DNA from: a virus | Lineage: Duplodnaviria; Caudoviricetes | Strand: one strand, 5' to 3' | Virus record (IMG/VR): IMGVR_UViG_3300035670_000009 | Location: 32,001 to 96,000 of that record | Length of the DNA stretch: 64,000 bases | Shown here: positions 3,857 to 63,731 of the stretch, piece after piece | How the letters are laid out: every line of letters starts with the position of its first letter | How positions within the stretch are numbered: position 1 is the first letter of the stretch | Made by a program: the position numbers and the translations under genes | Notes under the pieces: model-generated | Told to the model about the DNA's origin: nothing | The model's input: the letters and a program-made list of their open reading frames with translations, nothing else | The model's database searches: none

Positions 3857-4812
3857 CACTGGTCGGATCCTTCCAACGCCCAAAGCGCCTTTTCGACGCG
3901 AAGTACACAATACTCCCGAGAATCGTAAATGTACTGAAAACCAGTGGTATGGACAAGATATAACCGGTTGTCGTCGCTAATCTTAGCGGCCCAGGGACGC
4001 GCGTAAGGATCGTTGCTAGGCGGAAACCACCTGGCGGCAGACTGTTCAAATCGCACGTCATAAACCAGCACAATAAACCCCATTTCTTCCGGACTGTCTG
4101 GCTCAGGCCGGGCCACGTGAACCAGCACGTCGTGGAAGAAAGCCGGGACCGTGCCGATTCCTTCTTTCTCGAAATAGACGAGTTTCTGTGGCGGGCCATT
4201 GGTTGCGCTTTTTGCAACCACTGGAACAGTGTTGGCGGCCATAGAGCCTTTCTTCAGGCCGAAAGCGGCCATGGGACTGTAGCCCCGGTCGATTTTATCA
4301 ATGGGCGGCGCAGCTGGGCGCAGAACAGGCTGCGCGAATCTGCGGATGGCTTCGACTTCTTCTTCCAGCTCAGCGACGACGTCTTGCTCTTCAGTGTCGT
4401 AAGAAACCGCTACAGGCGCTGGGGGCACGGGCGGCGGAGTTTGTTTGATCGGCACCCGTTTCACGCCCGACTTAGATATCTTTGCCAATTCCTCGAATGC
4501 CACGGCAGCGCGCTCCCGGATTGAATTAATGTCGTTTCCCTGTACAGCTTGCCGTGCGGTCGCCAGGGCGTGCGCCACGGCGTCACCGGTAATTTTGTCC
4601 ATAGTCAAAACGGCGTTACCCCCGTCGGGTTCTACGTGGATCTCCAAATGCGCGCGGTCATGCGGATCGTAATTCTCCGGCAACCCGCCTGGCGTCGAGG
4701 GCGCAACCACAACACCGCGGATGCCACCTGGCCCGCGCCGCATTAAATCGGCCAAGGAGCGGCCGTTGTCCATACGGACTTGGGACGGATCAAGATAGTT
4801 TGTTGTGCTCAT
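3856..4812 (-). CDS. Hypothetical protein
   Basis: 318-aa ORF coupled to the downstream gene. Confidence 0.75.
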   Translation of the reverse strand: MSTTNYLDPSQVRMDNGRSLADLMRRGPGGIRGVVVAPSTPGGLPENYDPHDRAHLEIHVEPDGGNAVLTMDKITGDAVAHALATARQAVQGNDINSIRERAAVAFEELAKISKSGVKRVPIKQTPPPVPPAPVAVSYDTEEQDVVAELEEEVEAIRRFAQPVLRPAAPPIDKIDRGYSPMAAFGLKKGSMAANTVPVVAKSATNGPPQKLVYFEKEGIGTVPAFFHDVLVHVARPEPDSPEEMGFIVLVYDVRFEQSAARWFPPSNDPYARPWAAKISDDNRLYLVHTTGFQYIYDSREYCVLRVEKALWALEGSDQ

Positions 4813-4872
4813 AAGCGCTGATATCTAAAGAAGAGCGTAGGCCCGGGGCTTGCGCCCCGAGCTTAGCTCTTC

Positions 4873-5151
4873 TCACTCAAAGGCGGCCGAGGTCAACTCC
4901 GGGCACGTACTATATAGCGCAGATCTTGCAATCTGGAAATACAGCCGCCCCAGCGGAAACCCCGGGCCGCAGACTTCTTTAAGGTGGTCCGCGGAAAGGA
5001 CTACCTCAGCTAATACCTCACCGCTTATCAAATGCGCACACACCAGTCCTTTGTCTTTCTCTGCTGGAAAGAAGGGGAGCACGTGTGGATGGCCGTCTTG
5101 AGCGAGCAGCCACGCAAGCGTTTTCCCCGGAGGACGAAGTATGTAACGCAC
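4873..5151 (-). CDS. Hypothetical protein (about 92 aa)
   Basis: GTG start at 5151, just after the upstream stop at 5157; C-terminal part of the 4873..5379 ORF. Confidence 0.55.
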   Translation of the reverse strand: MRYILRPPGKTLAWLLAQDGHPHVLPFFPAEKDKGLVCAHLISGEVLAEVVLSADHLKEVCGPGFPLGRLYFQIARSALYSTCPELTSAAFE

Positions 5152-5156
5152 TTGAT

Positions 5157-6603: not shown

Positions 6604-6702
6604 AGCACGTTGGCTCCTCCTTCGGGCATAAGCCCGGCTAAATGTGCCCCGGGCTAAACACAGCACACTGGGCACGTAATATGCCCGCAAAACGCGCACA
6701 AT

Positions 6703-7146
6703 TTAGCTGTCCGGATCAGGAAGCACGTCGTCAAATACACCAAGGCCATCGCCGCTGTCGTCGAACGGATCTACAGCTGCAGCGCGGTGATTTACCGCTG
6801 GCATTTTTAATTGCGGCGGATCCTCGAGATTGATGGGATCAACGCCCAGGTAGCCGGTCTCGTCTTCTTCAAATTCAGTCGGCGAGTCAAACAACGGGAT
6901 TGGTTCTTGCCCGGGCACAAGCAGGTGGCGCATGGGCGGCTTGGAGATCTTCAACCGCTCGCCACGAAATGCGAACACAGAAACGTCCTGATTAATGCGG
7001 GTTTTGAGATACGCTGTCAGCTCTTCCAGCGTTTTAAATGCCTGCGTGAAATACGTACCGTCATGGTTTAAGACGGCTACGTGGAAAGATATCTTTTGAA
7101 CCTCGGCCGTGGCGGGTGCGGCAAGTTCCTTCTTTTCTTTTGTCAT
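6703..7146 (-). CDS. Hypothetical protein
   Basis: 147 aa with acidic C-terminus; coupled to the upstream ORF. Confidence 0.7.
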   Translation of the reverse strand: MTKEKKELAAPATAEVQKISFHVAVLNHDGTYFTQAFKTLEELTAYLKTRINQDVSVFAFRGERLKISKPPMRHLLVPGQEPIPLFDSPTEFEEDETGYLGVDPINLEDPPQLKMPAVNHRAAAVDPFDDSGDGLGVFDDVLPDPDS

Positions 7147-9067: not shown

Positions 9068-9744
9068 GATCGCCTCTGAGTCGAGGGGTTTTGCGCTTCC
9101 TGCGGCCGCGGATGCCACTGGTGAAAAAAACCGGGCACCCGTTCCCGCACAATCTCCATTTTCTGATAGGCGCGCCAATACACGTCGTCATCTTCTCGAC
9201 CGTAGCGCGCGCCCCAACGCTGTCCGTTCCAACCGCCTAGATCGTAAAAATCTTCGGCAACAAAACCGCAATTGCCGCGGCCGCTGTCGCGCCACCAGCC
9301 GTTCGCCGTCGAGCCTGGCGCGCGAGTGAACGGGCGACCGTTGTCGCGCACTGCCATTGGCGCGTGCTCGTAGAGCGAGTAACAGATTGGAAAATAGGCT
9401 TGTCCGGTGTTGACATAGCGGCGCACGCGGGCGGAAAAGTCCGGTGGCAGCACCATATCACAGTCGACAAAAAACACCAGGTCATCTGCGCAGGGTTGCG
9501 CGAATCGCATCGCCTGGTTGCGCGCGTGAGCGCGATTGATGTGCCCGTACTCATGCCCGGCGACATAACGGACGCGCCGCGACGACGCGGAATAGATATC
9601 TTTCCCGCTACCGTCCCAGTCGTAGACGTGAAGAAGATCGGTCTCGTTGTCAGGCTGCGCCGCCAAGCGTAAGTAACTGTCCCGCAGAACGGCAAAGGTG
9701 TCCCAGCGATTGTAAACCGCTGTGCAGTAATGAATTCGGCTCAT
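9064..9744 (-). CDS. Glycosyltransferase GT-A (GT2/GT7-like)
   Basis: RAHARNQA, FFVDCDMV (DxD), GGWNGQRWGARYGREDDDVYWR. Confidence 0.85.
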   Translation of the reverse strand: MSRIHYCTAVYNRWDTFAVLRDSYLRLAAQPDNETDLLHVYDWDGSGKDIYSASSRRVRYVAGHEYGHINRAHARNQAMRFAQPCADDLVFFVDCDMVLPPDFSARVRRYVNTGQAYFPICYSLYEHAPMAVRDNGRPFTRAPGSTANGWWRDSGRGNCGFVAEDFYDLGGWNGQRWGARYGREDDDVYWRAYQKMEIVRERVPGFFHQWHPRPQEAQNPSTQRRS

Positions 9745-13836: not shown

Positions 13837-14996
13837 GCAGAATCGCCCGGTTTTCGACCCTTCCGAATTTTTGGCGTCATCATTTCCATTGCTGCCATCT
13901 GCAATCGATCTCGCGAGGCGGCGGGCTCGTCGCGAGCGAAGCGCAGCAACGAACAGACCAGGTCATAGGCTGTGCGCGCACCAAGAACACTGTGCGTATA
14001 GACCTCAGTCGGGTCGCGAGGATCCAGATCTGCGCCGACCATTGCTGCGTTTTTAACGATTGTTTTGGCGTCGTCGCGCAGCAGGCCACGCCGTACAAGC
14101 TGTTCCACCCACTGGCCGACAACGTCGTTGAACTTCTCCGTGTCGTCAGTCAGCCCGAGCGGCGTTGCTTGTAGCTTGCCCAGTTGCGCCACAATACGCG
14201 GCATATCCAGCTCGCGAACGACGGCCTTGGCGACAAGCATGTTTGTACGCCCGGCCAAATCTGCGCCCACGTGGCTCATACGGGCGTTGTTTCTGGGCCG
14301 TTCCAACGCAGGGCCAAAACGCGTCAGCAAGCAAAGCACGGCGCTAATCGCTTTGTGTCGGTCTTCGCTATTGTTGAAAGACCAGCCCGCGGCAATCGTG
14401 TGCCGTGAATCTCGATAGATATCTTTCCGCTGACTGGTCGGGTCGATGTAGAACACGCGCAACGCGCGGCCAACAAGCTCGGCTCGCTGAAAACGGGCCG
14501 TCGGCTGCTGGGCCTGCATCTCGTTAACGACAATCTCCAAGAACGCGCTATTGTCGAGCATGCGATGATTCAAACCCAAGAACCCCTCGACGACGCGTTC
14601 GCGGTGATCGACCAGAAGCGTCCGCTCACGCACGGCGTCAATTCGAGTGCGGGCAACAAGGTTAAACAGACTGACCGCGGCTTGCAGGCTCGGCTCTGCT
14701 TCTTGATTTGCACTAATGCGCTGCTCGCCCGCCACTTCGCTGAAAACGCTGGCAAGGCCTGGCGCTAAACCGGTCGCCAGCGCCTGAAAGCCCAGGTAGT
14801 TAAACCGGTAGCCGTTTTCTGCCAGGCGGCCGTCAGGCGCCATGAGAAGCTGCTCGACATCTGAGATGGGCACGCAGTCCGTGTGCTCGCTGCGCTGCGC
14901 AAGAAACTGTTGCAGATCGTTCAGCTGCTGGGAGTTAAAAGCCAGCGCCGTGACGGGCGCAAAAATCGATCGGTTACGAATTGTAGCGCCAGCCAT
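13833..14996 (-). CDS. DUF932-like phage protein
   Basis: HRMLDNSAFLE...GWSFNNSED pattern resembles the DUF932 family; weak. Confidence 0.4.
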   Translation of the reverse strand: MAGATIRNRSIFAPVTALAFNSQQLNDLQQFLAQRSEHTDCVPISDVEQLLMAPDGRLAENGYRFNYLGFQALATGLAPGLASVFSEVAGEQRISANQEAEPSLQAAVSLFNLVARTRIDAVRERTLLVDHRERVVEGFLGLNHRMLDNSAFLEIVVNEMQAQQPTARFQRAELVGRALRVFYIDPTSQRKDIYRDSRHTIAAGWSFNNSEDRHKAISAVLCLLTRFGPALERPRNNARMSHVGADLAGRTNMLVAKAVVRELDMPRIVAQLGKLQATPLGLTDDTEKFNDVVGQWVEQLVRRGLLRDDAKTIVKNAAMVGADLDPRDPTEVYTHSVLGARTAYDLVCSLLRFARDEPAASRDRLQMAAMEMMTPKIRKGRKPGDSA

Positions 14997-18875: not shown

Positions 18876-21800
18876 TCAGTCCGCGCAAAGCCAACCCAAG
18901 CCCAAAGCCCTTGCCTGGTCTGGCTTTAGCTTTTCTCCCCAACTGACAAACACCTCTCGATCAGCGCCGAAGTGGTACGGCTGCTTGATCGGAATCAGTG
19001 ACCCGTCAAGGTAACGAGGCCAAAACGGGACATCGTCGACCATGCATTTAGGCACCACGTGCTTGTACACGTGCTCAGCGTGTTCAACTGGCACGATAAG
19101 CATGATTGCGTCGTGGATCTGCAGCGCAATGTCGTATTGCACTTCGGGATGCGCGCGACGGTATTGATAGAAGTTGTTTAACGCGATCGATACAGCGTCC
19201 GCCACGCCGCCTTGAATCGGAAAGTTCTGCGCCTGGCGCTGTTGTTCCCCGATCACGGCGCGGTCAGTCGACGGCATAAACCGCCGGTAGCGACCGTACG
19301 GACCCACGAGCCAGCCTGGCATTTGGCTACGTTCGCGGCACTCGGCCAGAAAATCTTTGGTGCGGGGATACGTGTCGAAGTAGGCGTCGATCATCAATTG
19401 GCACTCTTCGGCCGTGACCTCGACGCCCTCCTCTTTGCACTGCCGCGCGATAGCCTCGGCGCCGCGGCCGTAAGGAATTCCAAAATTCACGTTCTTGGCC
19501 GCCACCCGAAGGCCTTTCTTACCGGCCTTCTTCATGCCGCCCTTGGTCGGCTCAATGCCAGTCAAGGCAAAAGCCTTTACAGCCTGCCGAGAATGGATGT
19601 CGTAGTGGTCAGGGTGCTCCTCGGGCAGGAGATTCCGCCTTACGTGTTCGATAAAATTCTGGTCCTGGCTCAACCACGCGAGGACCGCCAGTTCCGCACC
19701 TGTGAGGTCCGTCTCGATGCCAACGCAGCCCTCGGGTACACGAAGGATCGAGCGGACGGGATGCCGGTAGGACTCTCCGAGGATTCGCCCGTAGTCGTCT
19801 TCGCGGCGGGAGCTGAGGTTTTGCAGCGGGGGCCGGGAGCTGCTGGCGCGGCCGGTTTCCTTGGTCTGAAAAAGATGCGTGCGCACTTTGCCATCTGCAT
19901 GCATAGCGCCAATAAGGCCTTTTTCATATTGGTAGTGGCCGCCTTCATCGGTTTCAAAATCTCCATCTTCGTTAATGGCTGGTTTCCGCAACACGGAAAC
20001 GAGCACCTGGCTGATGAACTTGTAATCGCGGATTTTAGCGGCCGTAACGTTCTGGTGTCCAAGAATGCCGAGGCTTTCTTTGTCGGTACTGGGAACGGCC
20101 GACTCCCTTCGCGTTTTGTAGTTCAATTCGCGCCAGAGCGCGGGCCGTTTGCCCGTTGTCTTGATGGGCGTAAGCCCAAGCGGTTGCGCGTCGTCAGGAA
20201 CCTGAACCGCTGCGGCGTAACGGTTTAGGAACTGCCTCCCAAACAGCGCCACGGAAAGCTGCGGCTGACTTTTGGGATTAAACGCAGGCCAGTTTAAGTC
20301 TGCGCGAAGCTCTGCCAGCAACCGGTCCTGCGCGTTCATGAAGATGGTCGTTAATTCGTCGGCCCGCGCGCGATCCACGACCAAACCGGTTCGCTCCATT
20401 TCCAGAAAGGCGAGACTGGCCTGATGAGCCGTCCAGTATGGCAGCCAGCAGTCGTTTCCATAGATATCTTTGGCGATCAACCCGTCGGTTCCGTCGGTGC
20501 CGTAAAAGCGCAGCATGATCCGCCGAGTAACGTCGGCGTCGTAGCTGGCATAAGGGTGAAGAACAGAACACGGAATCACGCCGTAGCCCGCCATCTCGCT
20601 GGCCTTGATCTTCTTTCGCTTCTCGTAGCGTTTCTTCCACTTGTCCAGCGCGACCCAGTAGGTCGGCGCGGTAGTGAACCGCATTGAGCACTCGTCCAGG
20701 CCGAACTTCGCGGTCTCGTTGACTGCGTGATACATCAAGCTGGTGTCCCAGCCGCCCTCGGTACGAATGTCGGGAGAAGCCGCCGGGGCGTACTCGTCGC
20801 GGCAATCTACGCCGAAGTCGATGAGCCACGGCAAATCGGCGCGGAGGAAATGGCCGCCCACCCGGACCTTGCGGTCTGGGCTGCTCTTGAGGAGCCGGTT
20901 CAGCTGAACGCGAGCTGCTTCAAGATTGGGCCGGAACGCCTCCGCGCCGTTGTCGTAGCGAAGGACGACGGTCCGCGCCCACTTGTCGCGGTTGCTGACC
21001 TGAATCGTCCTAAGATAAGCGCCAGCCTCCGTCGGGTAATCGCCGTGCCATTCGCAGTCCACGGCGATGATGTTTGCGTTTGGGTCAGGGTCCGAGAGCA
21101 TCTCATCGACCATCTCGGTGAGCGCCTCTTCGGTGTAAACGTCGGCATGGTCGACCAGTTCTTGCTCAGGCATGCGGTCATGAATGAGATCCACGAACCG
21201 CCGAACCTGGCCGCGTAAGTCTTCGTAAGCCTCGGGCTTACGCAACAAGTACGCGGGGTTCATGGCCGTCATCACCTTGATTTCGCGTTCGCCTGCACCG
21301 TCGGGGACCTTGATCGTCATCACCCGCCCCGAAAGATTGGAGACGTTGCCGGTCGTGTTTAACACGGCCTTAGCGGCCTCTTGGCCCAAGCAGAGAACAT
21401 AGTCCGGCCGGACAAGCTGCAGTTCTTGGTGCAAGAGCGGCGCGCAATCTTTGAGCCACGCAGCCGGGGTCGTGCTCGAGTCGGGCGTCGGCGAGCCGAA
21501 CTTGCAAGCGAAAGTAACGTACCAGCTGTGATATTCCTCCTCGGGCACGTTCAGGTCGGCCAGCACGTTTTCAAATTCCTCGCCGATTCGGCCGGTCATT
21601 ACGCGCTGCGCGGCCATCTCGTCTCGTCCAGGTATTTTCGAGACGACCATCACCCGCGCCGCTTTGGGGCCGTACGTGCCTTCGTCTGCTAGGCCCCAGA
21701 TGTGCCCGGGGACGAACTGCGAAACCTTCGAACCGTTCTTGAGTTTGATTGGTAACGAAAAAGTCGGCTCGTACAGCGCGAGGCGGTAGAGATAGACAAG

Positions 21801-22016
21801 ATGTTTTCCGGGGTCGACTTTCTTTTTCTTAACCTGCGCCGGGTCAATCGAGTCGCCCAACATGGTGGCGTGCTCGATGAAATTCGGCCCTGGTTGCGGC
21901 ATGCCTGGGCCGGTCATGTCTAGAAACGGGTAGAGAGCGTCGGCCAGGGCGGCGCTCTCCTCGTCGCCGTCCAGGGCCCGAGACAACAGGTGCGTAAACG
22001 TCAGCGTGGCCGTCAT
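18876..22016 (-). CDS. polA: DNA polymerase family A with N-terminal UDG family-4-like domain and 3'-5' exonuclease
   Basis: ExoI VDCE, ExoIII YASYDAD; motif A ETDLTGAELAVLA, motif B AAKNVNFGIPYG, motif C LQIHDAI; UDG-like SKIPGRDE...ELQLVRPDYVLCLG...MNPAYLLR. Start 22016 by ATGA coupling. Confidence 0.92.
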   Translation of the reverse strand: MTATLTFTHLLSRALDGDEESAALADALYPFLDMTGPGMPQPGPNFIEHATMLGDSIDPAQVKKKKVDPGKHLVYLYRLALYEPTFSLPIKLKNGSKVSQFVPGHIWGLADEGTYGPKAARVMVVSKIPGRDEMAAQRVMTGRIGEEFENVLADLNVPEEEYHSWYVTFACKFGSPTPDSSTTPAAWLKDCAPLLHQELQLVRPDYVLCLGQEAAKAVLNTTGNVSNLSGRVMTIKVPDGAGEREIKVMTAMNPAYLLRKPEAYEDLRGQVRRFVDLIHDRMPEQELVDHADVYTEEALTEMVDEMLSDPDPNANIIAVDCEWHGDYPTEAGAYLRTIQVSNRDKWARTVVLRYDNGAEAFRPNLEAARVQLNRLLKSSPDRKVRVGGHFLRADLPWLIDFGVDCRDEYAPAASPDIRTEGGWDTSLMYHAVNETAKFGLDECSMRFTTAPTYWVALDKWKKRYEKRKKIKASEMAGYGVIPCSVLHPYASYDADVTRRIMLRFYGTDGTDGLIAKDIYGNDCWLPYWTAHQASLAFLEMERTGLVVDRARADELTTIFMNAQDRLLAELRADLNWPAFNPKSQPQLSVALFGRQFLNRYAAAVQVPDDAQPLGLTPIKTTGKRPALWRELNYKTRRESAVPSTDKESLGILGHQNVTAAKIRDYKFISQVLVSVLRKPAINEDGDFETDEGGHYQYEKGLIGAMHADGKVRTHLFQTKETGRASSSRPPLQNLSSRREDDYGRILGESYRHPVRSILRVPEGCVGIETDLTGAELAVLAWLSQDQNFIEHVRRNLLPEEHPDHYDIHSRQAVKAFALTGIEPTKGGMKKAGKKGLRVAAKNVNFGIPYGRGAEAIARQCKEEGVEVTAEECQLMIDAYFDTYPRTKDFLAECRERSQMPGWLVGPYGRYRRFMPSTDRAVIGEQQRQAQNFPIQGGVADAVSIALNNFYQYRRAHPEVQYDIALQIHDAIMLIVPVEHAEHVYKHVVPKCMVDDVPFWPRYLDGSLIPIKQPYHFGADREVFVSWGEKLKPDQARALGLGWLCAD

Positions 22017-25112: not shown

Positions 25113-25825
25113 TGCTGCCTAATTTCTAATGCGGCTGCGCGCAACGCAGGTGTGACGCACCACGACTCAACAGCCGTGTCGTAAATGCGCTGCTGCGCCT
25201 CGTAATCCAGCGCGGCGAGCCATAGATATCTTTCCACGCCGCGCGAGTTTTCCAGCTGATGCGCAAAGGCATGCCGGAAAAACGGGCTGGCCGAGACGTA
25301 GCCCTCGTCGCAAAGAACGTAGAAAACCTGGTCGTCAGGGGCCAGGTTTAGCGCCTGCGTGCCGCGGATGCGATTAGCGATCGTCGCTCCGGCTACGTCA
25401 AAGCTGTACTTGAGCATCTTCGGCAAGGCCTGAAGATACTCTTGGTAAATTGCGGGAGATTGCGCGCCATACAACCGGCTTGGCCGCATGTCCGGAACAA
25501 TATGCGTCTGCGCAACCTGTCGCGCATACTGCACGCCTGAAAAGTGCGCAGCCACGTAAAGCCCGGGGTCGGCTCGCGACGCGCGCACCGCGTCCGCGAT
25601 CTTTTGCCATACAGCTGTACGTTTAACGCCGTACGCGTCTTTACCGCCATCCCAACTGACGCGCCGTCGATTATGAACTGGCGCATCCCAATCCGGCTCA
25701 TTTTCGTAATGCCGGACAAACTGATACCGCAGATAGGCAGTCAGTTGATGTGCTTGAAGCGTTAAATGCCAATCCGGGGATAGGTCAATCTCCGCCAATG
25801 CCGCGCCAGCTTCTCTGCGCTTCAT
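25094..25825 (-). CDS. Hypothetical protein in the replication block
   Basis: 243 aa from ATG 25825. Confidence 0.65.
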   Translation of the reverse strand: MKRREAGAALAEIDLSPDWHLTLQAHQLTAYLRYQFVRHYENEPDWDAPVHNRRRVSWDGGKDAYGVKRTAVWQKIADAVRASRADPGLYVAAHFSGVQYARQVAQTHIVPDMRPSRLYGAQSPAIYQEYLQALPKMLKYSFDVAGATIANRIRGTQALNLAPDDQVFYVLCDEGYVSASPFFRHAFAHQLENSRGVERYLWLAALDYEAQQRIYDTAVESWCVTPALRAAALEIRQHWRAFA

Positions 25826-28331: not shown

Positions 28332-28332
28332 G

Positions 28333-38497: not shown

Positions 38498-38881
38498 TTA
38501 TCCAGTCCGAATCCATTCCCCGGCAATGTGCAGGTGGCGACACGCCACGAGCATGTCGGCCTCGCATATCTCGGCCGCCTTTCTCCTCGCCATCCTGCAA
38601 CTCCGAAGAATCCTCCACGATGCAATCGGGAACGTCTTAGCGAAATCCTGCATCCGTTTTTCGGCGTCTTGCGAAATGCCGATCTTCCAGTAGGTCTGCT
38701 CTCCGCAGGTTGCCTCAATCCAATACACTTCGCACCCGAGCCTGTCGCAATTGGCAGTCGCTCTGCTCGCAACGTATGCGTCCCAGCAAGCTTCCGGCGA
38801 CCCCAGCCATTTGGCTTGGTTTTCTTCGATACAGATACCCGCATCAAGTGCCGCAAACGCAACCTGTGATCGCGTGCTCAT
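38498..38881 (-). CDS. T5orf172/GIY-YIG-like protein
   Basis: VYWIE...YWKIGISQDAEKRM...GEW. Confidence 0.65.
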   Translation of the reverse strand: MSTRSQVAFAALDAGICIEENQAKWLGSPEACWDAYVASRATANCDRLGCEVYWIEATCGEQTYWKIGISQDAEKRMQDFAKTFPIASWRILRSCRMARRKAAEICEADMLVACRHLHIAGEWIRTG

Positions 38882-40704: not shown

Positions 40705-41846
40705 CAGAGCACAATCAGCCCGACGGCTGTCTCCGGGAGCGGGAAAAGATAAACGCCAAGCGGACTAAACTGCCTGGGCGTATCAAGCCGCATCACCACG
40801 TTTTCATTGGCGTCGCGCAGTTGGGCGGTCACGTAAGGACCCGTCTTGGAAGTGCGAGCGTCCAGCGTAACGGAATATGGACTTCCGTCAACACTAAGCG
40901 TGACCGAAACTGAGTTGCCAGCGGGGTAGTTGCCAGGTCGATCGAAAACATCCTGGATCGCCGAGATGTGATTCTGCCGATACATTTCGAACAGCACAGG
41001 TTTCGTAAAACGCCCAAAGCGCGCGTCATACAACTGCTCCATTTCGGCGCCAGCGCCCCAGCATGCGGGTGCGTAGACCCTTGCTGCGGCCATTAGATAC
41101 GGCGGCACGTTAACGTAGTCCTCGGGCTGCGCCTTGGCCAGCAAAAACGTCTGCTCGGGGAGACAGACAAACTCGCCGGTCTCCGTGAGAATTTTCATCT
41201 CGCCGCTGTCCGTAGAAGGCAGCGCGATCGCTCCCAGCTGCGGCCCCATACCCGCGCCGTCAGGATATTCGCTCTGCCAATCGAGCAGCTCCGTAACGGG
41301 GCTGCCGTGCGGCGAAAACTTGGCCGGAGAGAAGACCGCCTGCAGGTGCGTGTTCTGCACCAGCGCCGGAGCTTTCTTGCCGGGCGTTGGCAGAGGTTGG
41401 GGCGCAGGGGCAGTCGTGACGGGCCACTGCGTCGGCTCAGCTGCCTGCACAGCAGCCTCGGCCACAAGCTGGTTAAACAGATCCTGGCTGGAGACTTCGG
41501 GCTCGAGCTGCACCACGTTCACAAACTGACGCAGCGCCTCCAGGATAATGGCGTCCCGACGATCAGGCGGAGTGTTCGCATACTCAAAGATATCTTTGAG
41601 CGCGTCGCTGCGAGTCGCCCGTGTCAGCGAAAAATTCAGGCCCGAGAAATCAAAACGGGCCAGCTGCTCAGCCGCTGTGACCAGTTTCGCTCGCGCCATC
41701 AGCGGTTGTTTGGCTTCGCTGCCTGCCAGCCGAAGAACCTCTAGCAATGCTGCAGCGAGCATCAGGCGGTGGCTGTCCTTAGACTTGGGCGCCGCCACCA
41801 TAAGAAAATCATCCAAAACGTTACTTGCGACGCATTCGTCGGACAT
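40704..41846 (-). CDS. Hypothetical protein
   Basis: 380 aa from ATG 41846 (MSDEC). Confidence 0.65.
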   Translation of the reverse strand: MSDECVASNVLDDFLMVAAPKSKDSHRLMLAAALLEVLRLAGSEAKQPLMARAKLVTAAEQLARFDFSGLNFSLTRATRSDALKDIFEYANTPPDRRDAIILEALRQFVNVVQLEPEVSSQDLFNQLVAEAAVQAAEPTQWPVTTAPAPQPLPTPGKKAPALVQNTHLQAVFSPAKFSPHGSPVTELLDWQSEYPDGAGMGPQLGAIALPSTDSGEMKILTETGEFVCLPEQTFLLAKAQPEDYVNVPPYLMAAARVYAPACWGAGAEMEQLYDARFGRFTKPVLFEMYRQNHISAIQDVFDRPGNYPAGNSVSVTLSVDGSPYSVTLDARTSKTGPYVTAQLRDANENVVMRLDTPRQFSPLGVYLFPLPETAVGLIVL

Positions 41847-44209: not shown

Positions 44210-44234
44210 AGCTATTCCTTGCTGCGCCAGGTTG

Positions 44235-44303
44235 TGCCCAGCCGGGAATCGAACCCGGGGCCTCCGACTTACAATGTCGGACTCTGCCACTGAGCTACTG
44301 GGC
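44235..44303 (-). tRNA. tRNA-Thr(TGT), atypical
   Basis: GCCCAG-TA-GCTC-AGTGGCA-GAGT-CCGAC-ATTGTAA-GTCGG-AGGCC-CCGGG-TTCGATT-CCCGG-CTGGGC-A; no encoded CCA. Confidence 0.75.
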
Positions 44304-44340
44304 GCGCCTGGTCAAACGCATTTATCGCGCCTGCTGCGCG

Positions 44341-45521: not shown

Positions 45522-45835
45522 GACGCAATGTTCTCCATGTGTCTGCGCCAGCGAGTGGCGCTGTGGTTGTTGTAGTCCGGCGTAGCGGTGCCGGAAACGC
45601 GCGGATAGATATCAATCGGCGAGGCACAAAACGGACGTGTCATCGATTCTGCAAGAAAAAACACGCCGCAAATCCTTGAAGGCGCTCAAGTTGCGGCGCA
45701 ACCCTTACAAAAATGTTGTCCGATTTGACCTGACCTCGTTGACTCACTTCGTGAGTCATAAAGGGTTAAGACTGGGAAGGGAAAGGCAGGGTGTGAAAAC
45801 CCTGCCTATTCCCCCCACCCTATTAGACAAGACAA
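45522..45835. promoter_or_regulatory. Large intergenic control region
   Basis: Hairpins TGACTCAC-TTC-GTGAGTCA (45740-45758) and AGGCAGGGT/ACCCTGCCT (45784-45807); palindrome variant at 45605; AGACAA repeats. Confidence 0.4.
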
Positions 45836-46780
45836 TCAAGACAATCTGCTGTGTCCCCAGTATTTCTCGATGCCTTTGGACAGCGACAAGAATTCTTTGG
45901 TGTACCCTGCTGCTCGCAGTCGAGTTAGGCTAGCTTGCGTGCGAAACTGATACTGGTTGCGAAGTTCTTTTGGCATCGGAATCCAAGCGCACTCAGCGCC
46001 GAATTTGTTGCGCTGCTGCACTGAAATAGCGTTGAAGGCCAACTCATCGAATAAATCGTAAAACGATTGCGCCTGACCAGTTCCAACGTTGTAGATCCCC
46101 GAGGGCGCCTCTTTCAGTGCCCACAGGACGACTTGTACAACGTCGTCGATATAGACAAAATCCCGAAAGATATCTTTGCTCCCTGCGAAAAGCGTTGGTT
46201 TTTCGCCGTTGTTTACTTGCTGGATCAAGTGGTACGCCACGCTGGCTAGCCGACCTTTGTGTTCTTCGCCTGGACCGTACACATTAAAGTACCGCAGGCC
46301 GACCACTCTGTTGACCGCCTGTGTCAATCGACCGCGGACGTACTCGTCAAACGCCCACTTCGAGATAGCGTAAGGCGTTGTCGGGTGTTCGTATTCAGGC
46401 GATTCGATGCACTGGGGTCTACCAGGACCATAAACCGCAGCGCTCGAAGCGTAGATCAGCGGACAATTTGACGCCTGCGCCAGGTCGAACAGATCCACCG
46501 AAAAACTGTAATTGGCCAGCATGATGTTGCGACCGTTTGACTCGGTGGTGTCCGAGTTTGCGCCCTGGTGAATAATCGCACTAAGCTCGGCTTCGCGCGT
46601 TTTACCTTTTCCCAGGTCGCGATAGTCGCAATAGTAGTAAAACTTACTACCGGCGAGGTTTTGCATCTTGCGCCCATCGGTCAAATCGTCGACGCAAATA
46701 ATGTCGTCGCGACCTTGATCGTTGAGGGCCTTCAAGATATTTGAGCCAATAAAGCCAGCAGCTCCGGTGAGTAGGATCAT
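45836..46780 (-). CDS. hldD: ADP-L-glycero-D-manno-heptose 6-epimerase
   Basis: TGAAGFIGS, HQGANSDT, YASSAAVYG, YAISK, RYFNVYGPGE.HKG, RDFVYI. Confidence 0.92.
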   Translation of the reverse strand: MILLTGAAGFIGSNILKALNDQGRDDIICVDDLTDGRKMQNLAGSKFYYYCDYRDLGKGKTREAELSAIIHQGANSDTTESNGRNIMLANYSFSVDLFDLAQASNCPLIYASSAAVYGPGRPQCIESPEYEHPTTPYAISKWAFDEYVRGRLTQAVNRVVGLRYFNVYGPGEEHKGRLASVAYHLIQQVNNGEKPTLFAGSKDIFRDFVYIDDVVQVVLWALKEAPSGIYNVGTGQAQSFYDLFDELAFNAISVQQRNKFGAECAWIPMPKELRNQYQFRTQASLTRLRAAGYTKEFLSLSKGIEKYWGHSRLS

Positions 46781-47474: not shown

Positions 47475-47794
47475 ACGTAAGTGTTTCCGGCTGCGCGCTC
47501 TGCTAGCACGTTGTTTACGCTGCGGGCAAATTCGCTATGCGGCGGCAAAATGTCCCAGATTTTCATTTCGACATCGATAGCGAAATAGTCGCCCGCGTGG
47601 TCGAAAACGCAACGTACATGCGGCGCACAGCGCTCGCCCGCTTTGTGCTCGTGCAGGAGCGTGTACTTAGGTGTGTAGAACCCGTCGGGCAGGTTTGCGA
47701 GAAACGATACGCTAGTCGCGCGGTTGTAGCCCAGCTCAAGTGCGCGCGCATTGGCGCGCTCAAGTAGGCCTTTAGTGAAAACACGGGGCTCCAT
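47471..47794 (-). CDS. Hypothetical protein
   Basis: 107 aa; ATG overlaps a palindrome variant. Confidence 0.65.
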   Translation of the reverse strand: MEPRVFTKGLLERANARALELGYNRATSVSFLANLPDGFYTPKYTLLHEHKAGERCAPHVRCVFDHAGDYFAIDVEMKIWDILPPHSEFARSVNNVLAERAAGNTYV

Positions 47795-47800
47795 AGATAT

Positions 47801-48265
47801 TTATTCCGCCGTCTGGGCGGCCTCCTTTTTCTTCTTGGCTTCTTCTTCCCACAGCTTCTTGAGCTGGTCGCGGACTACCAGGTCGTGCCCGGCCTGTATC
47901 TGCGCCAGCTCACGCAGCGTCTCTTTTTCCCAGGGCGTGTTGACCGAAAGATTGTCTGGCCAACTGGCGTACTCTTCAGCGTTTTCAGGGCTGAATCCGT
48001 TCGCGATGAGAATGCGCTGCACGTTGTTGCAAAACAACCGCTCGGCGTGCTGCGCGTTTTTAACGAACTCTTTGTCGACGTCCAGGTTGTCTTCAGCAGC
48101 AATTCTGTAACGGTAGATTGCCTCAGCGAGAGCGTTGACAATTTCGGCCGTGCTGCCGCAGTCGTTTTCAAATGCCCCGGCAAACAGGTCATAGATGATC
48201 TCGCGCGTGTGCTCGGGATCGAATTCGTTATCGTGTCGCATGATGTAAGCAAGTCGGGCGGTCAT
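47801..48265 (-). CDS. Hypothetical protein
   Basis: 154 aa. Confidence 0.65.
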   Translation of the reverse strand: MTARLAYIMRHDNEFDPEHTREIIYDLFAGAFENDCGSTAEIVNALAEAIYRYRIAAEDNLDVDKEFVKNAQHAERLFCNNVQRILIANGFSPENAEEYASWPDNLSVNTPWEKETLRELAQIQAGHDLVVRDQLKKLWEEEAKKKKEAAQTAE

Positions 48266-48992: not shown

Positions 48993-49105
48993 AAAACCTC
49001 CTAGTGGCTCGTGTAAACGGGTTCGGCGCGGGTGTAGTCTTTGGCGCAGGCCGCGTACACACGGGCCCGGCCAAAGATATCTATCGCGGACGGCGTCCTC
49101 AAGAC

Positions 49106-55434: not shown

Positions 55435-55496
55435 GGTTAGCGCGCGCGACTACACAGTCGCGGGGCGACGATTCTCCTGGCTGGATAGATATCTAT

Positions 55497-59619: not shown

Positions 59620-60087
59620 TTAGGTCGCGCCGCCGTTGGAGCCTAGGGCTTTGTTTCGCATGGCTTCCAAACGTTCGTTCACTTCGGCTTTGGTCAAAGA
59701 TATCTTTTCACCACTGGCTCGTGGTTTGACCGCGGCGGGCGGGCAACTACAGCCTGGTCCCCGCAGCAGGCCCTCGTTCAATTCCGGCCACTTCTCGAGC
59801 GAATGAATCGCGCCGATCACATTCCAGGCAGCGTGCCCAAGATGATCCTCTGAGCGGTCTCCCCCGAGAAAGTCATAGAGGTGCGCGATCGCGTGGTTCA
59901 GCAAATCGGTCACGGGCATTCCGTTTTCCCAATTCGCCGCACCGCGCTTAGCGGCGCCTTCAGCGTACGTCTTGGCGAGCGCCTTGAGCCCGATCGGGCT
60001 GATTAAATCCCAGCGTTCATCGTCGCGGTCTGCGCTGCGCACGGCGCCGGTCTCAAAGTGATGGCTCGCCTCTTCGCTGTTCTTCAT
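59620..60087 (-). CDS. dATP/dGTP diphosphohydrolase-domain protein (DUF5664)
   Basis: FETGAVRS...RWDLISP...YAEGAAKRGAANWENG...EDHLGHAAWN. Confidence 0.85.
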   Translation of the reverse strand: MKNSEEASHHFETGAVRSADRDDERWDLISPIGLKALAKTYAEGAAKRGAANWENGMPVTDLLNHAIAHLYDFLGGDRSEDHLGHAAWNVIGAIHSLEKWPELNEGLLRGPGCSCPPAAVKPRASGEKISLTKAEVNERLEAMRNKALGSNGGAT

Positions 60088-61122: not shown

Positions 61123-61135
61123 AACGTTTCCCGCG

Positions 61136-61348: not shown

Positions 61349-61551
61349 ACCTGAGTCAAACCAGTGTCGGTCGGCGGGCAGCCGTTCACGTCTTGCTGGT
61401 ATTCAGGTAGCGGCAGTGGTGGTTCAAGAGTCAAATGATGCGCCATGTTCTGCCACAGAGACACTTGTGGCCCAGGACCGCGCAACGTGGTCCGAATATC
61501 TGGTTGTCGCCGCTCTTGGTAGAGCTTTGCGCTGTGTCCAACAGTTGCCAT
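61318..61551 (-). CDS. Hypothetical protein
   Basis: 77 aa from ATG 61551. Confidence 0.45.
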   Translation of the reverse strand: MATVGHSAKLYQERRQPDIRTTLRGPGPQVSLWQNMAHHLTLEPPLPLPEYQQDVNGCPPTDTGLTQVWPHGDAHAP

Positions 61552-61748
61552 TGTCTTCTCCCGTGTGCAACCCAGCAGAGCCACCTTCTAGTATACTCTG
61601 CCAGGCTGCGGGCTCTAGTTCAGTCATCTTGACCGAGACTGGAGAGAAGCCGGAACACGCCGTAAAAAAGTCTTGTCGCACAGTGCAGGCCGTGAGCGGC
61701 GATAATGTTTACGCCGTCTTCTAGCCATTCCAGTTCGGCAATTTCTTC

Positions 61749-63719
61749 GTGTTCCTGACCGCTGTCACGGGATTGATACTGGGACATATGGCACCAGAGA
61801 TAAAAGAGCGGGTGGTGAATCCGCTGGAATCAGCAGCTAGCGAGGTCGCCCACGCGGGCGTTCGTTCGCTGCTCACAGAACTGACATCGATTGACGTGAC
61901 GGACCAGGCGTCTGCGCGTGAGCGAATGCACGTACTCAAAGCGCTGGCCGAACAACGGGCTTTTCCGTCGCTCGAGCCAATCTTGCCGCTGGTGTTAAAC
62001 CTGAACGGCAAACCGTATTCCATTCACGATCATTTTCCCTTTGCGCCTTTGTTCAGGGTGCTCATGCCAAAGTCGCAGGTCTGGAAAACCGGTCGGCAGC
62101 TCTCGAAATCCACCTCGTTGGCGGCGCATGGTGTTGTGGTAGCCAATAGTATTCCGTTCTTTAAAACGCTGTACGTAACACCGCTTTTTGAACAGATACG
62201 TCGGTTCAGCAACAACTACGTGCGGAGCTTTATCGAGCAGTCTCCCATCAAGAACCAGTGGTGCGGTACTGAAACAGACAACAACGTGCTCCAAAGGTCA
62301 TTTCGCAACAAGAGCATGATGTTGTTTTCGTACGCAATGCTCGACGCTGATCGCGTGCGAGGTGTTTCTAGCGATCGGATGTGTATCGACGAGGTCCAAG
62401 ACATGGACCCAGACCACATTCCGATTATTCAAGAGACGATGTCGTATTCCCGGTTTGCGATGAGCCATTTCACCGGAACGCCGAAGACCCTAGATAACCC
62501 TTTAGAGGGGCTATACCAGCGAAGCTCGGCAGCAGAGTGGTTTATTCCATGCGCAGCTGGCGGGTGCGGGCATTGGAATATTCCGTCGCGGGAGCACGAC
62601 CTTGACGCGATGATCGGCCCATACCGAGACGATATCAGCGAGAAAGCGCCTGCCACAATTTGCGCTAAGTGTCAAAAGCCTATTAACCCAAGGCACGGCC
62701 GATGGGTCCATCGGCATCCGGATCGCCGATGGGTCTTTGCCGGTTATCACGTGCCGCAGATTTTGTTGCCGCTTCATTACGCCGACCCGGATAAGTGGGC
62801 GACGCTCCTCATGAAGCGGGAAGGCTTCAACTACACTCCGGCCCAGTTCTATAACGAGGTGCTCGGCGAATCGATTGACGCCGGGCAGAAGCTCGTCACG
62901 GAGACCGACTTGCGCAACGCCTGCCTGCTCCCGTGGGAGAACAAACGCGAGCCAGAACCGGAGTGTTTTAAACACATAGACCAGTACAAGCAACGCATTT
63001 TGGCGATCGACTGGGGTGGCGGCGGAGAAGCGGGAATCTCTTTTACAGTGATCTCGATTCTCGGTTTTCGCCACGACGGCGTGATCGACGTACTCTGGGG
63101 CAAACGCCTGATGATGGGCGGCGAACATCTCGCCGAAGCTGTCGAATGCATGAAATATTCGCAGTTGTTTAAGTGCGATTTCGTCTGTCACGACTACACC
63201 GGTGCAGGCACAGTGCGCGAAACAGTAATGGTCCAGGCTGGATTTAACCTAGACCGCGTATTAGCTATTCGCCTGTGTCGTTCGGCTGCGCAAGATCTCA
63301 TGGTGTACAAGGAACCAACCGCGTTCAATCACCGCGCGCACTACAGCTTGGATAAGACTAGATCACTGCTCTACACCTGCCAGGCAATCAAACTCAAACA
63401 GGTCCGGTTTTTTCAATACGACTGGTTATCGCAGGACAACCCTGGCCTAATCGCTGATTTCTTGGCGCTCATTGAGAACAAAACAGAAAGCCGCAGCTCG
63501 GGGGATATTTACACGATTACGAGAAACGTGTTGTTGTCAGACGACTTTGCACAGTCGGTGAACTTCGGCACGAACGCGCTGTGGCACATCAACCAGGCGT
63601 TGCCCAACTTCGCTGAAATCGCCGGACTGGGCCGAATTAGCGCGAAGCTGGCTGCTCAAGAAGCCACAGGCGACTGGGCCGACGACGACCTGGGCGACCG
63701 GTTCTTCAGCGGTTACTGA
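61749..63719 (+). CDS. terL: Terminase large subunit (GpA-like, with Zn finger)
   Basis: KTGRQLSKST (Walker A variant), MCIDEVQD (Walker B), GTPKT, EWFIPC...C...CAKC, NEVLGE, nuclease LAIDWG. Confidence 0.88.
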   Translation: MFLTAVTGLILGHMAPEIKERVVNPLESAASEVAHAGVRSLLTELTSIDVTDQASARERMHVLKALAEQRAFPSLEPILPLVLNLNGKPYSIHDHFPFAPLFRVLMPKSQVWKTGRQLSKSTSLAAHGVVVANSIPFFKTLYVTPLFEQIRRFSNNYVRSFIEQSPIKNQWCGTETDNNVLQRSFRNKSMMLFSYAMLDADRVRGVSSDRMCIDEVQDMDPDHIPIIQETMSYSRFAMSHFTGTPKTLDNPLEGLYQRSSAAEWFIPCAAGGCGHWNIPSREHDLDAMIGPYRDDISEKAPATICAKCQKPINPRHGRWVHRHPDRRWVFAGYHVPQILLPLHYADPDKWATLLMKREGFNYTPAQFYNEVLGESIDAGQKLVTETDLRNACLLPWENKREPEPECFKHIDQYKQRILAIDWGGGGEAGISFTVISILGFRHDGVIDVLWGKRLMMGGEHLAEAVECMKYSQLFKCDFVCHDYTGAGTVRETVMVQAGFNLDRVLAIRLCRSAAQDLMVYKEPTAFNHRAHYSLDKTRSLLYTCQAIKLKQVRFFQYDWLSQDNPGLIADFLALIENKTESRSSGDIYTITRNVLLSDDFAQSVNFGTNALWHINQALPNFAEIAGLGRISAKLAAQEATGDWADDDLGDRFFSGY

Positions 63720-63731
63720 ATAGATATCTAT

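What the first reader, a model, noticed from the sequence alone, without database searches (positions are those of the whole stretch)
4472..63731. Genome-wide, evenly spaced 12-bp palindrome AWAGATATCTWT written into coding genes in all three frames
Seen: 13 exact copies (7085, 9592, 14415, 20460, 25222, 33100, 36238, 41586, 46166, 49073, 55485, 59696, 63720). Every AGATATCT core I found carries A/T flanks, including 4472 (TTAGATATCTTT). Variants occur at 28829, 45605 and 47793. At about 58% GC my hand estimate is about 0.004 copies expected per 64 kb. Gaps between the 14 core sites run 2.5-7.9 kb (mean about 4.6 kb, CV about 0.35 by hand versus 1 for random placement), and the largest gap is split by the 28829 variant. 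In genes the motif is read as K-D-I-Y/F, E-R-Y-L and K-I-S, i.e. all three frames, forcing ATA/AGA/CTA codons, so a peptide motif does not explain it. Two copies extend to 18-bp perfect palindromes (41583-41600, 63717-63734). Two sit directly after TGA stops (AAA ATPase, terminase), and two variants overlap start codons (RAMP gene; 47794). Inference: a grid of sites for a dimeric DNA-binding protein, analogous to matS/MatP, SlmA or Noc sites, organising, compacting, segregating or packaging the phage chromosome. I know of no described phage equivalent with this sequence.
Basis: partly seen in the sequence, partly recalled or inferred. Interest (0 to 1): 0.92.

Follow-up and report, generated by a model that had tools for sequence, protein, structure and literature searches.

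The report
Evenly spaced palindrome grid in jumbo phage
A 204-kb uncultivated jumbo phage carries about 42 copies of a 12-16 bp palindrome spaced roughly every 5 kb, mostly inside genes; the sites are conserved in relatives and symmetrically rewritten in a sister lineage, which points to sites for an unidentified dimeric DNA-binding protein.

Summary
The window is part of a 203,910-bp IMG/VR jumbo phage. It has 13 AWAGATATCTWT copies in the window, 39 in the genome, and 42 AGATATCT cores, against about 0 expected. Enrichment survives a synonymous-codon shuffle (26 coding copies vs mean 0.9). Spacing is more even than random (CV 0.55; 0.33 over the first 111 kb; none of 20,000 random placements as even).

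- **Conservation:** close relatives keep the sites at orthologous positions, although the flanks are only about 76% identical.
- **Specificity switch:** a sister lineage (terminase 79% identical) instead has 31 copies of cATTGATATCAATg. At four or more exactly orthologous positions both half-sites are swapped.
- **Other lineages:** one relative has a relaxed WGATATCW (44 copies). Two others lack the motif.
- **Not a hairpin:** variable positions in the two halves vary independently.
- **Not the promoter:** a separate GCTAAA-N17-GGCATAT promoter-like motif exists.
- **Enzymes:** Pfam finds no DNA methyltransferase, ParB, topoisomerase or integrase.

Best reading: cognate sites of a two-fold symmetric protein, probably phage-encoded, that marks or organises the chromosome. 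The binder and the function are not identified. Three small basic proteins (g129, g130, g136) share the motif's phyletic pattern. Other first-stage readers of this scan flagged the same motif in overlapping windows of this genome.

The parts
4472..4483 (.). site TTAGATATCTTT (core intact, outer A replaced by T), inside an ORF
   Evidence: PWM score 18.3 vs about 25 for full sites
7085..7096 (.). site AAAGATATCTTT, inside an ORF 56 nt from its start
9592..9603 (.). site ATAGATATCTTT inside a glycosyltransferase ORF. The exactly orthologous G006 position reads CAATGATATCAATG
14415..14426 (.). site inside an ORF. The orthologous G006 position reads AATGATATCATT, and G004 has ATAGATATCTGT
20460..20471 (.). 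site in the middle of the UDG-PolA DNA polymerase gene
25222..25233 (.). site inside an ORF; a site is retained at the orthologous G001 position with one W changed (ATAGATATCTTT vs AAAGATATCTTT)
28829..28840 (.). hybrid variant ATAGATATCAAT: one G000-type half and one G006-type half
33100..33111 (.). site inside an ORF, conserved in G001
36238..36249 (.). site inside an ORF, conserved in G001
41583..41600 (.). site extended to an 18-bp perfect palindrome CTCAAAGATATCTTTGAG, conserved in G001
45605..45616 (.). hybrid variant ATAGATATCAAT
46166..46177 (.). site inside an NAD-dependent epimerase ORF, conserved in G001
47793..47804 (.). variant ATAGATATTTAT; a G001 AGATATCT site maps about 5 bp away
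49073..49084 (.). intergenic site, 22 nt after one gene's stop and 81 nt before the next start. G006 has its own site within about 20 bp
55485..55496 (.). intergenic site directly after a TGA stop, 51 nt before the next start
59696..59707 (.). site near the 3' end of an ORF
63717..63734 (.). 18-bp palindrome TGAATAGATATCTATTCA that supplies the TGA stops of the two convergent genes (large terminase on +, its neighbour on -)

Best explanation
The motif (consensus S-V-A-W-A-G-A-T-A-T-C-T-W-T-B-S) is the cognate recognition site of a two-fold symmetric, sequence-specific DNA-binding protein. Each subunit reads one half-site.

The protein is most likely encoded by the phage and has co-evolved with its sites. 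The ancestral form was GATATC with A/T-rich flanks. It is relaxed in one lineage (WGATATCW), sharpened to AWAGAT|ATCTWT in the window's lineage, and sharpened to CATTGAT|ATCAATG in a sister lineage.

Selection keeps about one site per 4-6 kb wherever coding allows. I infer that the bound protein marks or organises the whole phage chromosome (looping, compaction, or telling self from non-self DNA), rather than controlling individual genes.

Shown here: the enrichment, the even spacing, the orthologous conservation, the symmetric switch, and the independence of the half-sites. Inferred: protein binding, phage origin of the binder, and the chromosome-wide role. The binder is not identified. Weak candidates are g129/g130 (G000 98677-99161) and g136 (G000 104331-104663).
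For: - **Enrichment:** 13 in the window and 39-42 in the genome, against about 0 expected. It survives a codon-preserving shuffle, 26 vs 0.9.
- **Spacing:** CV 0.55, and 0.33 over the first 111 kb; none of 20,000 random placements was as even; no two sites are closer than 610 bp. Spacing is also more even than random in G001 (P=0.018; 0.0001 for WGATATCW). In G006 it is significant only for WGATATCW (P=0.006); the strict TGATATCA set is borderline (P=0.051).
- **Conservation:** 12 of 20 alignable G001 sites are identical in G000, against 0.84 expected from 77% flank identity. 19 of 30 G001 sites map within 50 bp of a G000 site.
- **Specificity switch:** G006 has 31 WTGATATCAW copies. Six of 29 mapped sites fall within 50 bp of a G000 site. 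Four are at exactly the same position with both halves swapped, for example GGAAAGATATCTTTTCGCG vs GGTTTGATATCAAATCGCG inside otherwise near-identical flanks.
- **Intermediates:** 6 of 7 sub-optimal G000 sites are A-type/T-type hybrids. G004 has 44 WGATATCW.
- **Symmetry without pairing:** complementary pairs at variable positions match the expectation from independent halves, 21 observed vs 19.0 expected of 42.
- **Independence from genes:** all three frames are used, at any depth inside ORFs.
- **Island:** the 14.6-kb gap without sites includes a block of genes that have no homologues in the relatives, four of them on the plus strand.
- **Phyletic pattern:** g129, g130 and g136 (all pI about 10.5) occur only in motif-bearing lineages.
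Against: - No binder was identified. No Pfam DNA-binding domain was found in the candidates.
- The g136 model has low confidence and no fold match.
- g130 is only weakly BAH/SH3-like, at Z 8.3, which the tool rates as borderline.
- The phyletic pattern is confounded by relatedness. A g136 homologue at 53% identity sits in a stretch that has the unchanged A-type motif.
- Sites are 2.2-fold enriched within 150 nt upstream of gene starts (KS p=0.013). One abuts a -35-like element. This fits a transcriptional role at least for a subset.
- No ParB or SMC-type partner was found other than SbcC/Rad50-like.
- The host is unknown, so a host-encoded binder cannot be excluded.
Confidence: 0.5

Rival explanations
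1. The sites form a genome-wide operator or roadblock network. A phage repressor or regulator would bind them to silence or time transcription of the almost unidirectional genome, as with mycobacteriophage stoperators, P1 C1 operators or phiC31 CIR sites.
For: - 38% of sites lie within 150 nt upstream of a gene start, against 17% of genome positions.
- The intergenic sites sit between a stop or terminator and the next RBS.
- One site is 3 nt upstream of a GCTAAA-N17-GGCATAT promoter-like element, and another lies about 90 nt downstream of one.
- 231 of 241 genes share one strand, so roadblocks could gate long transcripts.
- The phage has its own RNAP beta/beta' and a sigma factor.
- Stoperators likewise number about 30 per genome and diverge along with the repressor (PMC6550527, PMC9283540).
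Against: - About half the sites are hundreds to 1,600 nt inside ORFs.
- The sites are palindromic, whereas stoperators are asymmetric and oriented (PMC6550527).
- Even spacing is not needed for gene control.
- No integrase or lysogeny module was seen.
- The intergenic excess may simply reflect weaker coding constraint.
Confidence: 0.2
2. The sites are substrates of a symmetric enzyme: a site-specific nickase or endonuclease, a recombinase, or a replication or clamp-loading initiator. This would create regularly spaced nicks, breaks or entry points, comparable to the T5 nicks or T4 nick-dependent late-transcription enhancers.
For: - Palindromic 12-16 bp sites with a GATATC core are typical of dimeric nucleases (own knowledge).
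- Even spacing suits a distance-limited process.
- The phage encodes PD-(D/E)XK-type proteins (DUF1016_N, PDDEXK_5), SbcCD, a RecA-like protein and primase/helicase.
Against: - The PDDEXK_5 gene is missing from G001 and G006, which have the motif. The DUF1016-like gene is present in G009, which lacks it.
- No raw reads were available to look for ends; all holding runs are kept as contigs only.
- Cutting both strands of a palindrome would fragment the genome.
Confidence: 0.12
3. The sites bind a host protein, such as a nucleoid-associated or global regulator dimer. Lineages with different motifs would infect hosts whose orthologous factor has a different specificity.
For: - No phage DNA-binding domain was found by Pfam.
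- Relatives G003 and G009 lack the motif altogether, as would be expected after a host change.
Against: - Hybrid sites and a relaxed-specificity lineage suggest gradual cis-trans co-evolution within one genome.
- A host jump would require retuning about 30 sites at once.
- The motif matches no known bacterial factor consensus that I can recall (own knowledge).
- The host is unknown, so this was not tested.
Confidence: 0.1
4. The motif is a promoter, an RNA/ssDNA hairpin, or a restriction-modification or methylation target.
For: - It is AT-rich in a 58% GC genome and often lies just upstream of genes.
- It contains the EcoRV hexamer.
- It could fold as a 4-6 bp stem with an ATAT loop.
Against: - A distinct bipartite promoter-like motif exists.
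- There is no orientation bias beyond coding constraint.
- Half of the sites have a non-complementary W pair, so a stem is not maintained.
- GATATC outside the motif occurs at about the expected frequency: 25 of the 80 copies lie outside WGATATCW, and codon-shuffled coding sequence gives about 32.
- No DNA methyltransferase was found.
- Restriction pressure would deplete a site, not enrich it.
Confidence: 0.05

Closest known systems
Mycobacteriophage Cluster A stoperators and immunity repressor (L5, Bxb1; PMC6550527, PMC9283540)
   Same: Tens of copies (up to about 30) of a 13-bp site for one phage protein are dispersed over the whole genome. Each genome has its own cognate motif version, and motif distance tracks repressor distance. 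Sites persist while the motif drifts.
   Different: Stoperators are asymmetric, bound by a monomer, oriented with transcription, and belong to temperate 50-kb phages. Here the site is a palindrome with independent half-sites, mostly inside ORFs, evenly spaced, in a 204-kb phage with no lysogeny genes found. No repressor homologue was detected.
KorB-OB system of plasmid RK2 (ParB-family CTP-dependent sliding clamp; PMC11790492)
   Same: A palindromic site is repeated at roughly 5-kb intervals around a mobile replicon (12 copies on 60 kb, from memory). Some copies are next to promoters and others far from any. This allows action at a distance.
   Different: No ParB_N domain is present in the phage. 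The sequence is unrelated. Nothing indicates sliding or CTP use.
Chromosomal site grids matS/MatP, SBS/SlmA and NBS/Noc (own knowledge)
   Same: Short palindromes for dimeric proteins are scattered through coding DNA to organise or position a chromosome.
   Different: Those are cellular, restricted to chromosome macrodomains, and not evenly spaced. No MatP, SlmA (TetR) or Noc (ParB) homologue was detected by Pfam.
phiC31 conserved inverted repeats (CIR) and P1 C1 operators (own knowledge, not checked in a paper here)
   Same: Many copies of one repressor site are spread over a phage genome. The CIRs are palindromic.
   Different: Those are fewer, mostly near promoters, in temperate phages. The only hint of homology is a non-significant Pfam hit of g100 to Phage_Repressor_c (E=0.12).

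Membership tests
ParB/parS, KorB/OB, Noc/NBS | A ParB_N (CTPase) domain protein encoded with the sites | tested here: not met
   PF02195 search of the whole genome found no candidate, while the controls were positive
ParB/parS, KorB/OB, Noc/NBS | Palindromic 13-16 bp site repeated over the replicon | tested here: met
   Symmetric 16-bp consensus, 42 copies
Mycobacteriophage stoperators | Asymmetric site with one orientation relative to transcription | tested here: not met
   The site is a palindrome, and its flanks are symmetric
Mycobacteriophage stoperators | Motif diverges between lineages while site positions persist | tested here: met
   G000 vs G006 orthologous swaps
Mycobacteriophage stoperators | Cognate immunity repressor that binds the sites | not testable with these tools
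   No homologue was recognised, and binding needs EMSA or DAP-seq
Type II restriction-modification target (EcoRV-like GATATC) | A cognate DNA methyltransferase or endonuclease in the genome, and depletion of unprotected sites | tested here: not met
   No DNA MTase family turned up in Pfam scans of nearly all ORFs. The motif is enriched, and GATATC outside it is near expectation
Hairpin or cruciform element (N4-type hairpin promoter, ssDNA initiation signal) | Base-pair covariation that maintains a stem | tested here: not met
   At the variable position flanking the core, complementary pairs are 21 observed vs 19.0 expected of 42. 21 sites have a mismatched W pair
Sigma-dependent promoter | Oriented element at a fixed distance upstream of genes | tested here: not met
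   Half of the sites are deep inside ORFs. A separate GCTAAA-N17-GGCATAT motif occupies promoter positions
Chi-like recombination hotspot | Short asymmetric sequence, oriented, and abundant in the host genome | tested here: inconclusive
   The motif is symmetric and 12-16 bp long, which is not Chi-like. Host frequency is untestable because the host is unknown

The most novel reading that the evidence does not exclude
This could be a phage-encoded chromosome-marking system. Small basic proteins of no known family (the g129 Cys-rich, possibly zinc-binding protein with the g130 BAH-like barrel, or g136) would bind an evenly spaced, fast co-evolving grid of palindromic 'self' sites. The grid would loop, compact or protect a jumbo-phage genome. 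That would be a viral counterpart of matS, NBS or parS grids, with lineage-specific addresses that could also discriminate between co-infecting relatives.
Probability: 0.25. Interest if true: 0.88.

Novelty: new variant of a known kind. Interest (0 to 1): 0.72.

Why it matters
If it holds, this is a clear natural example of a cis-trans recognition code being rewritten across a whole viral genome. About 40 sites, most embedded in coding sequence, changed in step at conserved positions. A relaxed lineage and hybrid sites survive as intermediates.

The even 5-kb spacing inside genes points to a distance-dependent process on the phage chromosome, such as organisation, protection, or loading of a tracking machine. 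I know of no such process described for phages with a palindromic intragenic grid.

It also gives a direct handle for finding a new DNA-binding protein family by synthesis-based assays, because the cognate sites and a natural specificity switch are already known. The phage is uncultivated and its host is unknown, so in vivo tests are limited.

Tried and rejected
- **ParB_N search:** none found.
- **Pfam and PHROGs on lineage-restricted ORFs:** only sugar-modifying enzymes and unknowns.
- **Pooled Pfam scans of about 206 ORFs:** no HTH, MTase, topoisomerase or integrase.
- **g100:** a non-significant hit to Phage_Repressor_c (E=0.12). The sequence does not look like an HTH, and the Atlas search was uninformative.
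- **g136:** the model has pLDDT 60 and there are no fold or PDB-sequence matches.
- **g130:** a confident model, but only borderline BAH-like matches and no PDB sequence match.
- **g130 homodimer prediction:** returned no verdict, so it counts neither for nor against.
- **Sequencing runs:** 10 DNA runs hold the stretch or part of it (subsurface, freshwater, marine). All are kept as contigs, so molecule ends, nicks and RNA could not be examined.
- **14-mer scan of viral contigs:** only scattered single hits.
- **Literature string search for the motif:** only primers.
- **Positional equivalence with other motifs:** I tested whether the different motifs of distant relatives G011 and G012 sit at G000 site positions. 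One reliably anchored coincidence was found (G011; a second near-hit in G012 rests on an anchor 3.5 kb away), so I rejected this as a general pattern.
- **Palindrome as promoter:** rejected after finding GCTAAA-N17-GGCATAT.


Full report
**Observation**

The pattern AWAGATATCTWT occurs 13 times in the window, and the core AGATATCT 14 times. Dinucleotide-preserving shuffles give 0.00 and 0.12.

The window is G000:32001-96000 of a 203,910-bp IMG/VR virus record. IMG/VR classes the ends as direct terminal repeats; I find 73 bp identical at the two ends. GC is 57.7%. Genome-wide there are 39 12-mers and 42 cores.

My own ORF caller gives 241 genes, 231 of them on the minus strand, covering 92.4% of the genome. 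Thirteen of the 42 sites are intergenic or overlap a stop codon. The other 29 lie inside ORFs, at any relative depth and in all three frames.

**Is it more than chance or coding?**

I permuted synonymous codons within each gene. This keeps every protein and each gene's codon usage, including the very codons that build the motif. It gives a mean of 0.9 coding 12-mers (max 4 in 300 shuffles), against 26 observed. For the 8-mer it gives 2.3 against 29.

The spacing is regular:
- Gap CV is 0.55 for the genome, against 0.96 +/- 0.14 for random placement. None of 20,000 simulations was as low.
- CV is 0.33 over the first 111 kb.
- The smallest gap is 610 bp (P=0.004).
- Spacing is also more even than random in relative G001 (P=0.018; 0.0001 for WGATATCW). 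In G006 it is significant only for WGATATCW (P=0.006); the strict TGATATCA set is borderline (P=0.051). It is not in G004.
- The largest gap (109.9-124.4 kb) includes a block of genes, four of them on the plus strand, that have no homologues in any relative. This is what one expects if sites accumulate only in long-resident DNA.

**Relatives**

The large terminase finds 79 related stretches in IMG/VR. They belong to a family of jumbo phages of about 200 kb.

| Genome | Terminase identity | Motif content |
|---|---|---|
| G001 | 91% | 26 12-mers in 154 kb |
| G002 | 82% | 16 12-mers in 119 kb |
| G003, G004 | 77%, 74% | 0 12-mers |
| G005 | 73% | 1 12-mer |

- 19 of 30 G001 sites map within 50 bp of a G000 site.
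- Of 20 alignable G001 sites, 12 are identical over all 12 bases in G000. Only 0.84 would be expected from the 77% identity of the flanks.
- Several perfect G001 sites correspond to sub-optimal G000 sites.

**A specificity switch**

G006 (terminase 79% identical, 197 kb) has no A-type enrichment. Instead it has 31 copies of WTGATATCAW, with the extended consensus c-T-C-A-T-TGATATCA-A-T-G-a-G.

Six of 29 mapped G006 sites fall within 50 bp of a G000 site. The median nearest distance is 732 bp against 1,311 bp for random placement (P=0.01).

At four positions the two motifs occupy exactly the same place:
- G000:46417 and G000:41594, both inside ORFs.
- G000:31640, at a gene boundary.
- G000:192107, in a conserved non-coding block. 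G000, G001 and G002 read GGAAAGATATCTTTTCGCG (the G002 copy differs in the flanking bases). G006 reads GGTTTGATATCAAATCGCG, within flanks that are otherwise almost identical.

Both half-sites changed in the same way.

Intermediates exist:
- Six of the seven sub-optimal G000 sites are hybrids, with one A-type and one T-type half, such as ATAGATATCAAT.
- G004 has 44 copies of a relaxed WGATATCW with A/T-rich flanks. Some of them sit at G000 site positions.
- G003 and G009 have only 6-8 WGATATCW and half as many GATATC hexamers.

**What kind of element?**

The consensus is symmetric over 16 bp. The variable positions of the two halves vary independently. At the W position, 21 of 42 sites are complementary against 19.0 expected from the marginals, and the other 21 carry a mismatch. 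The same holds further out, and in G001 and G006.

A hairpin or cruciform would require covariation. Independent half-sites are what a two-fold symmetric protein dimer predicts.

The excess of one asymmetric form on the coding strand is explained by coding. ATAG would place an in-frame TAG in one frame. Intergenic sites are mostly the symmetric ATAGATATCTAT.

The palindrome is not the promoter. Intergenic regions carry a separate bipartite motif, GCTAAA-N17-GGCATAT, in at least nine copies.

It is not a restriction-modification signature:
- The motif is enriched rather than depleted.
- GATATC outside it is near expectation.
- Pfam scans of nearly all ORFs found no DNA methyltransferase.

**Genome context**

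The phage encodes:
- an RNA polymerase beta/beta' fusion;
- a sigma-70 family protein that is conserved across the whole family;
- a family A DNA polymerase with an N-terminal UDG-like domain;
- primase, DnaB-like helicase, a RecA-like protein and SbcCD-like proteins;
- a tmRNA and four tRNAs;
- CsrA;
- many sugar-modifying enzymes.

No ParB_N domain, topoisomerase or integrase was found.

**Relation to genes**

Sites are enriched just upstream of gene starts: 38% lie within 150 nt, against 17% of genome positions (KS p=0.013). The intergenic ones lie between a stop or terminator and the next RBS. One abuts a -35-like GCTAAA element.

This can be read two ways. It may be a transcriptional role for a subset of sites. 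Or, more simply, a 12-mer may be easiest to place where coding constraint is weakest, while spacing is what selection acts on. I favour the second reading, because half the sites are hundreds to 1,600 nt inside ORFs and the spacing is regular. The first is kept as the main rival.

**Search for the binder**

I compared gene content between genomes with and without the motif. I also compared 44 terminase-region stretches. Three small, very basic proteins stand out (pI about 10.5).

| Protein | Size | G000 position | Notes |
|---|---|---|---|
| g129 | 54 aa | 98677-98841 | CxCx3Cx2C motif |
| g130 | 107 aa | 98838-99161 | overlaps g129 by 4 bp |
| g136 | 110 aa | 104331-104663 | Lys-Thr repeat N-tail, RKKAVRRR C-tail |

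- **Distribution:** they occur in every stretch with a strong motif (G002's g136 could not be assessed). g129 and g136 occur in none of the motif-poor stretches. g130 alone has one more copy, in L015, which holds two A-type cores and five hybrids.
- **g136:** a site lies about 45 nt upstream of its start. It is only 39% identical between G000 and G006, against 63-70% within the A-type lineage.
- **A further stretch:** That supports co-occurrence. It also shows that g136 sequence change does not by itself predict the motif type.
- **Structure:** g130 folds confidently (pLDDT 93) into a beta-barrel. Its best structural neighbours are all BAH domains, at a borderline Z of 8.3. g136 folds poorly.
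- **Domain searches:** neither g130 nor g136 has Pfam or PDB sequence matches, and g129 has no Pfam match.
- **Confounding:** the phyletic signal is confounded by relatedness.

These three are leads, not findings.

- The 29195 gene is absent from all relatives.
- The DUF1016-like and 41821 genes also occur in genomes that lack the motif.
- The 58313 and 59076 genes also occur in terminase-region stretches with no or almost no copies of the motif.

**Comparison with known systems**

- **Stoperators.** The closest phage precedent is the stoperator network of Cluster A mycobacteriophages. As many as 30 13-bp sites for the immunity repressor are spread over the genome, with motif versions that diverge along with the repressor (PMC6550527, PMC9283540). 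Those sites are asymmetric, oriented, and read by a monomer.
- **KorB-OB on plasmid RK2.** This resembles the geometry here: a palindrome repeated around the replicon (every ~5 kb, from memory), both near and far from promoters (PMC11790492). It depends on a ParB-family protein, which this phage lacks.
- **matS, SBS and NBS grids.** These share the idea of palindromes embedded in coding DNA. They are cellular and not evenly spaced (own knowledge).

The present case combines palindromic symmetry, mostly intragenic placement, regular spacing, and a documented genome-wide switch of specificity. I did not find a description of this combination. The literature searches returned nothing relevant.

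**Verdict**

The feature is real, strongly selected and lineage-specific. A dimeric protein reading the sites is well supported. The identity of that protein and the process it serves remain inferred.

Noticed in passing
window 6640-6690 (G000 about 38640-38690); also G000 12317, 16550, 16961, 17822/17832, 18474, 27604, 107541, 151069: A bipartite promoter-like motif, GCTAAA-N17-GGCATAT, occurs in at least nine intergenic copies on the coding strand. It is probably the real promoter class for a subset of genes. Whether the host or the phage sigma reads it is unknown.
   Followed up: partly
L168:1995-2290 (G000 191995-192290): A non-coding block of about 290 nt is conserved at 79-88% in G000, G001, G002 and G006, which is better than most neighbouring genes. 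RNAalifold predicts helices, and 9 pairs show compensatory changes. It has no Rfam match and contains one palindrome site. It is a candidate structured RNA or a cis element such as an origin.
   Followed up: partly
G011 (L131-L139), e.g. G011:27722, 40174, 65389, 119763: A distant relative (terminase 58%) has 10 copies of a different, non-palindromic 15-mer, cGGTAAATAAGAACc. It occurs in both orientations, mostly intergenic. Three copies lie 16-25 nt upstream of gene starts, one of them at the position orthologous to G000:31640.
   Followed up: partly
G012 (L150-L157) and G014 (L141-L149): G012 (flagged as a provirus, GC 65%) has 10 copies of the 17-bp palindrome CGtTACGCnGCGTAaCG, against 0.1 expected. 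G014 has 19 TACCGGTA, against about 2.6 expected. Dispersed lineage-specific motifs may be a general trait of this phage family.
   Followed up: partly
L166:17104-19998 and L167:1-1471 (G000 167101-171471); L170 (G000 132270-133082): A single 1,456-aa protein combines RNA polymerase beta (Rpb2 domains 2, 3, 6) and beta' (Rpb1 domains 1, 2). A separate protein carries Rpb1 domain 5, and a sigma-70 family protein (regions 3 and 4) is conserved across the whole phage family.
   Followed up: partly
window 18876-22016 and 25785-28385: The family A DNA polymerase has an N-terminal UDG-superfamily domain. A helicase-like 866-aa protein contains a LAGLIDADG_3 domain, which may be an intein or a homing endonuclease insertion.
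   Followed up: no
L162:3131-3661; L168:1221-1293; window 44234-44304: The phage encodes a tmRNA (tag peptide GAPLALAA) next to tRNA-Lys(UUU) and tRNA-Thr(UGU), plus tRNA-Asn(GUU) and one more tRNA.
   Followed up: no
G000 109850-124411 (partly beyond the window): A 14.6-kb stretch has no palindrome site. It includes a block of genes that are unique to this genome, four of them on the plus strand, and looks like a recent insertion.
   Followed up: partly
L163:8841-9161 (G000 98838-99161): g130, a 107-aa basic protein restricted to this phage clade, folds with high confidence (pLDDT 93) into a beta-barrel. Its top structural neighbours are all eukaryotic BAH domains (Z up to 8.3).
   Followed up: partly
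window, one ORF among 15905-61787 (pooled Pfam scan A1); also G000 outside the window: Nucleotide-pool enzymes are present: a dATP/dGTP diphosphohydrolase N-terminal domain, MazG, an HD domain, thymidylate kinase and thymidine kinase. They hint at altered nucleotide metabolism or a DNA modification. No PurZ-like gene was seen.
   Followed up: no
L169 (G000 189577-191167): A PD-(D/E)XK endonuclease of the PDDEXK_5 family sits next to a UDP-galactopyranose mutase. Both lie in a variable island whose genes have homologues only in G002.
   Followed up: partly
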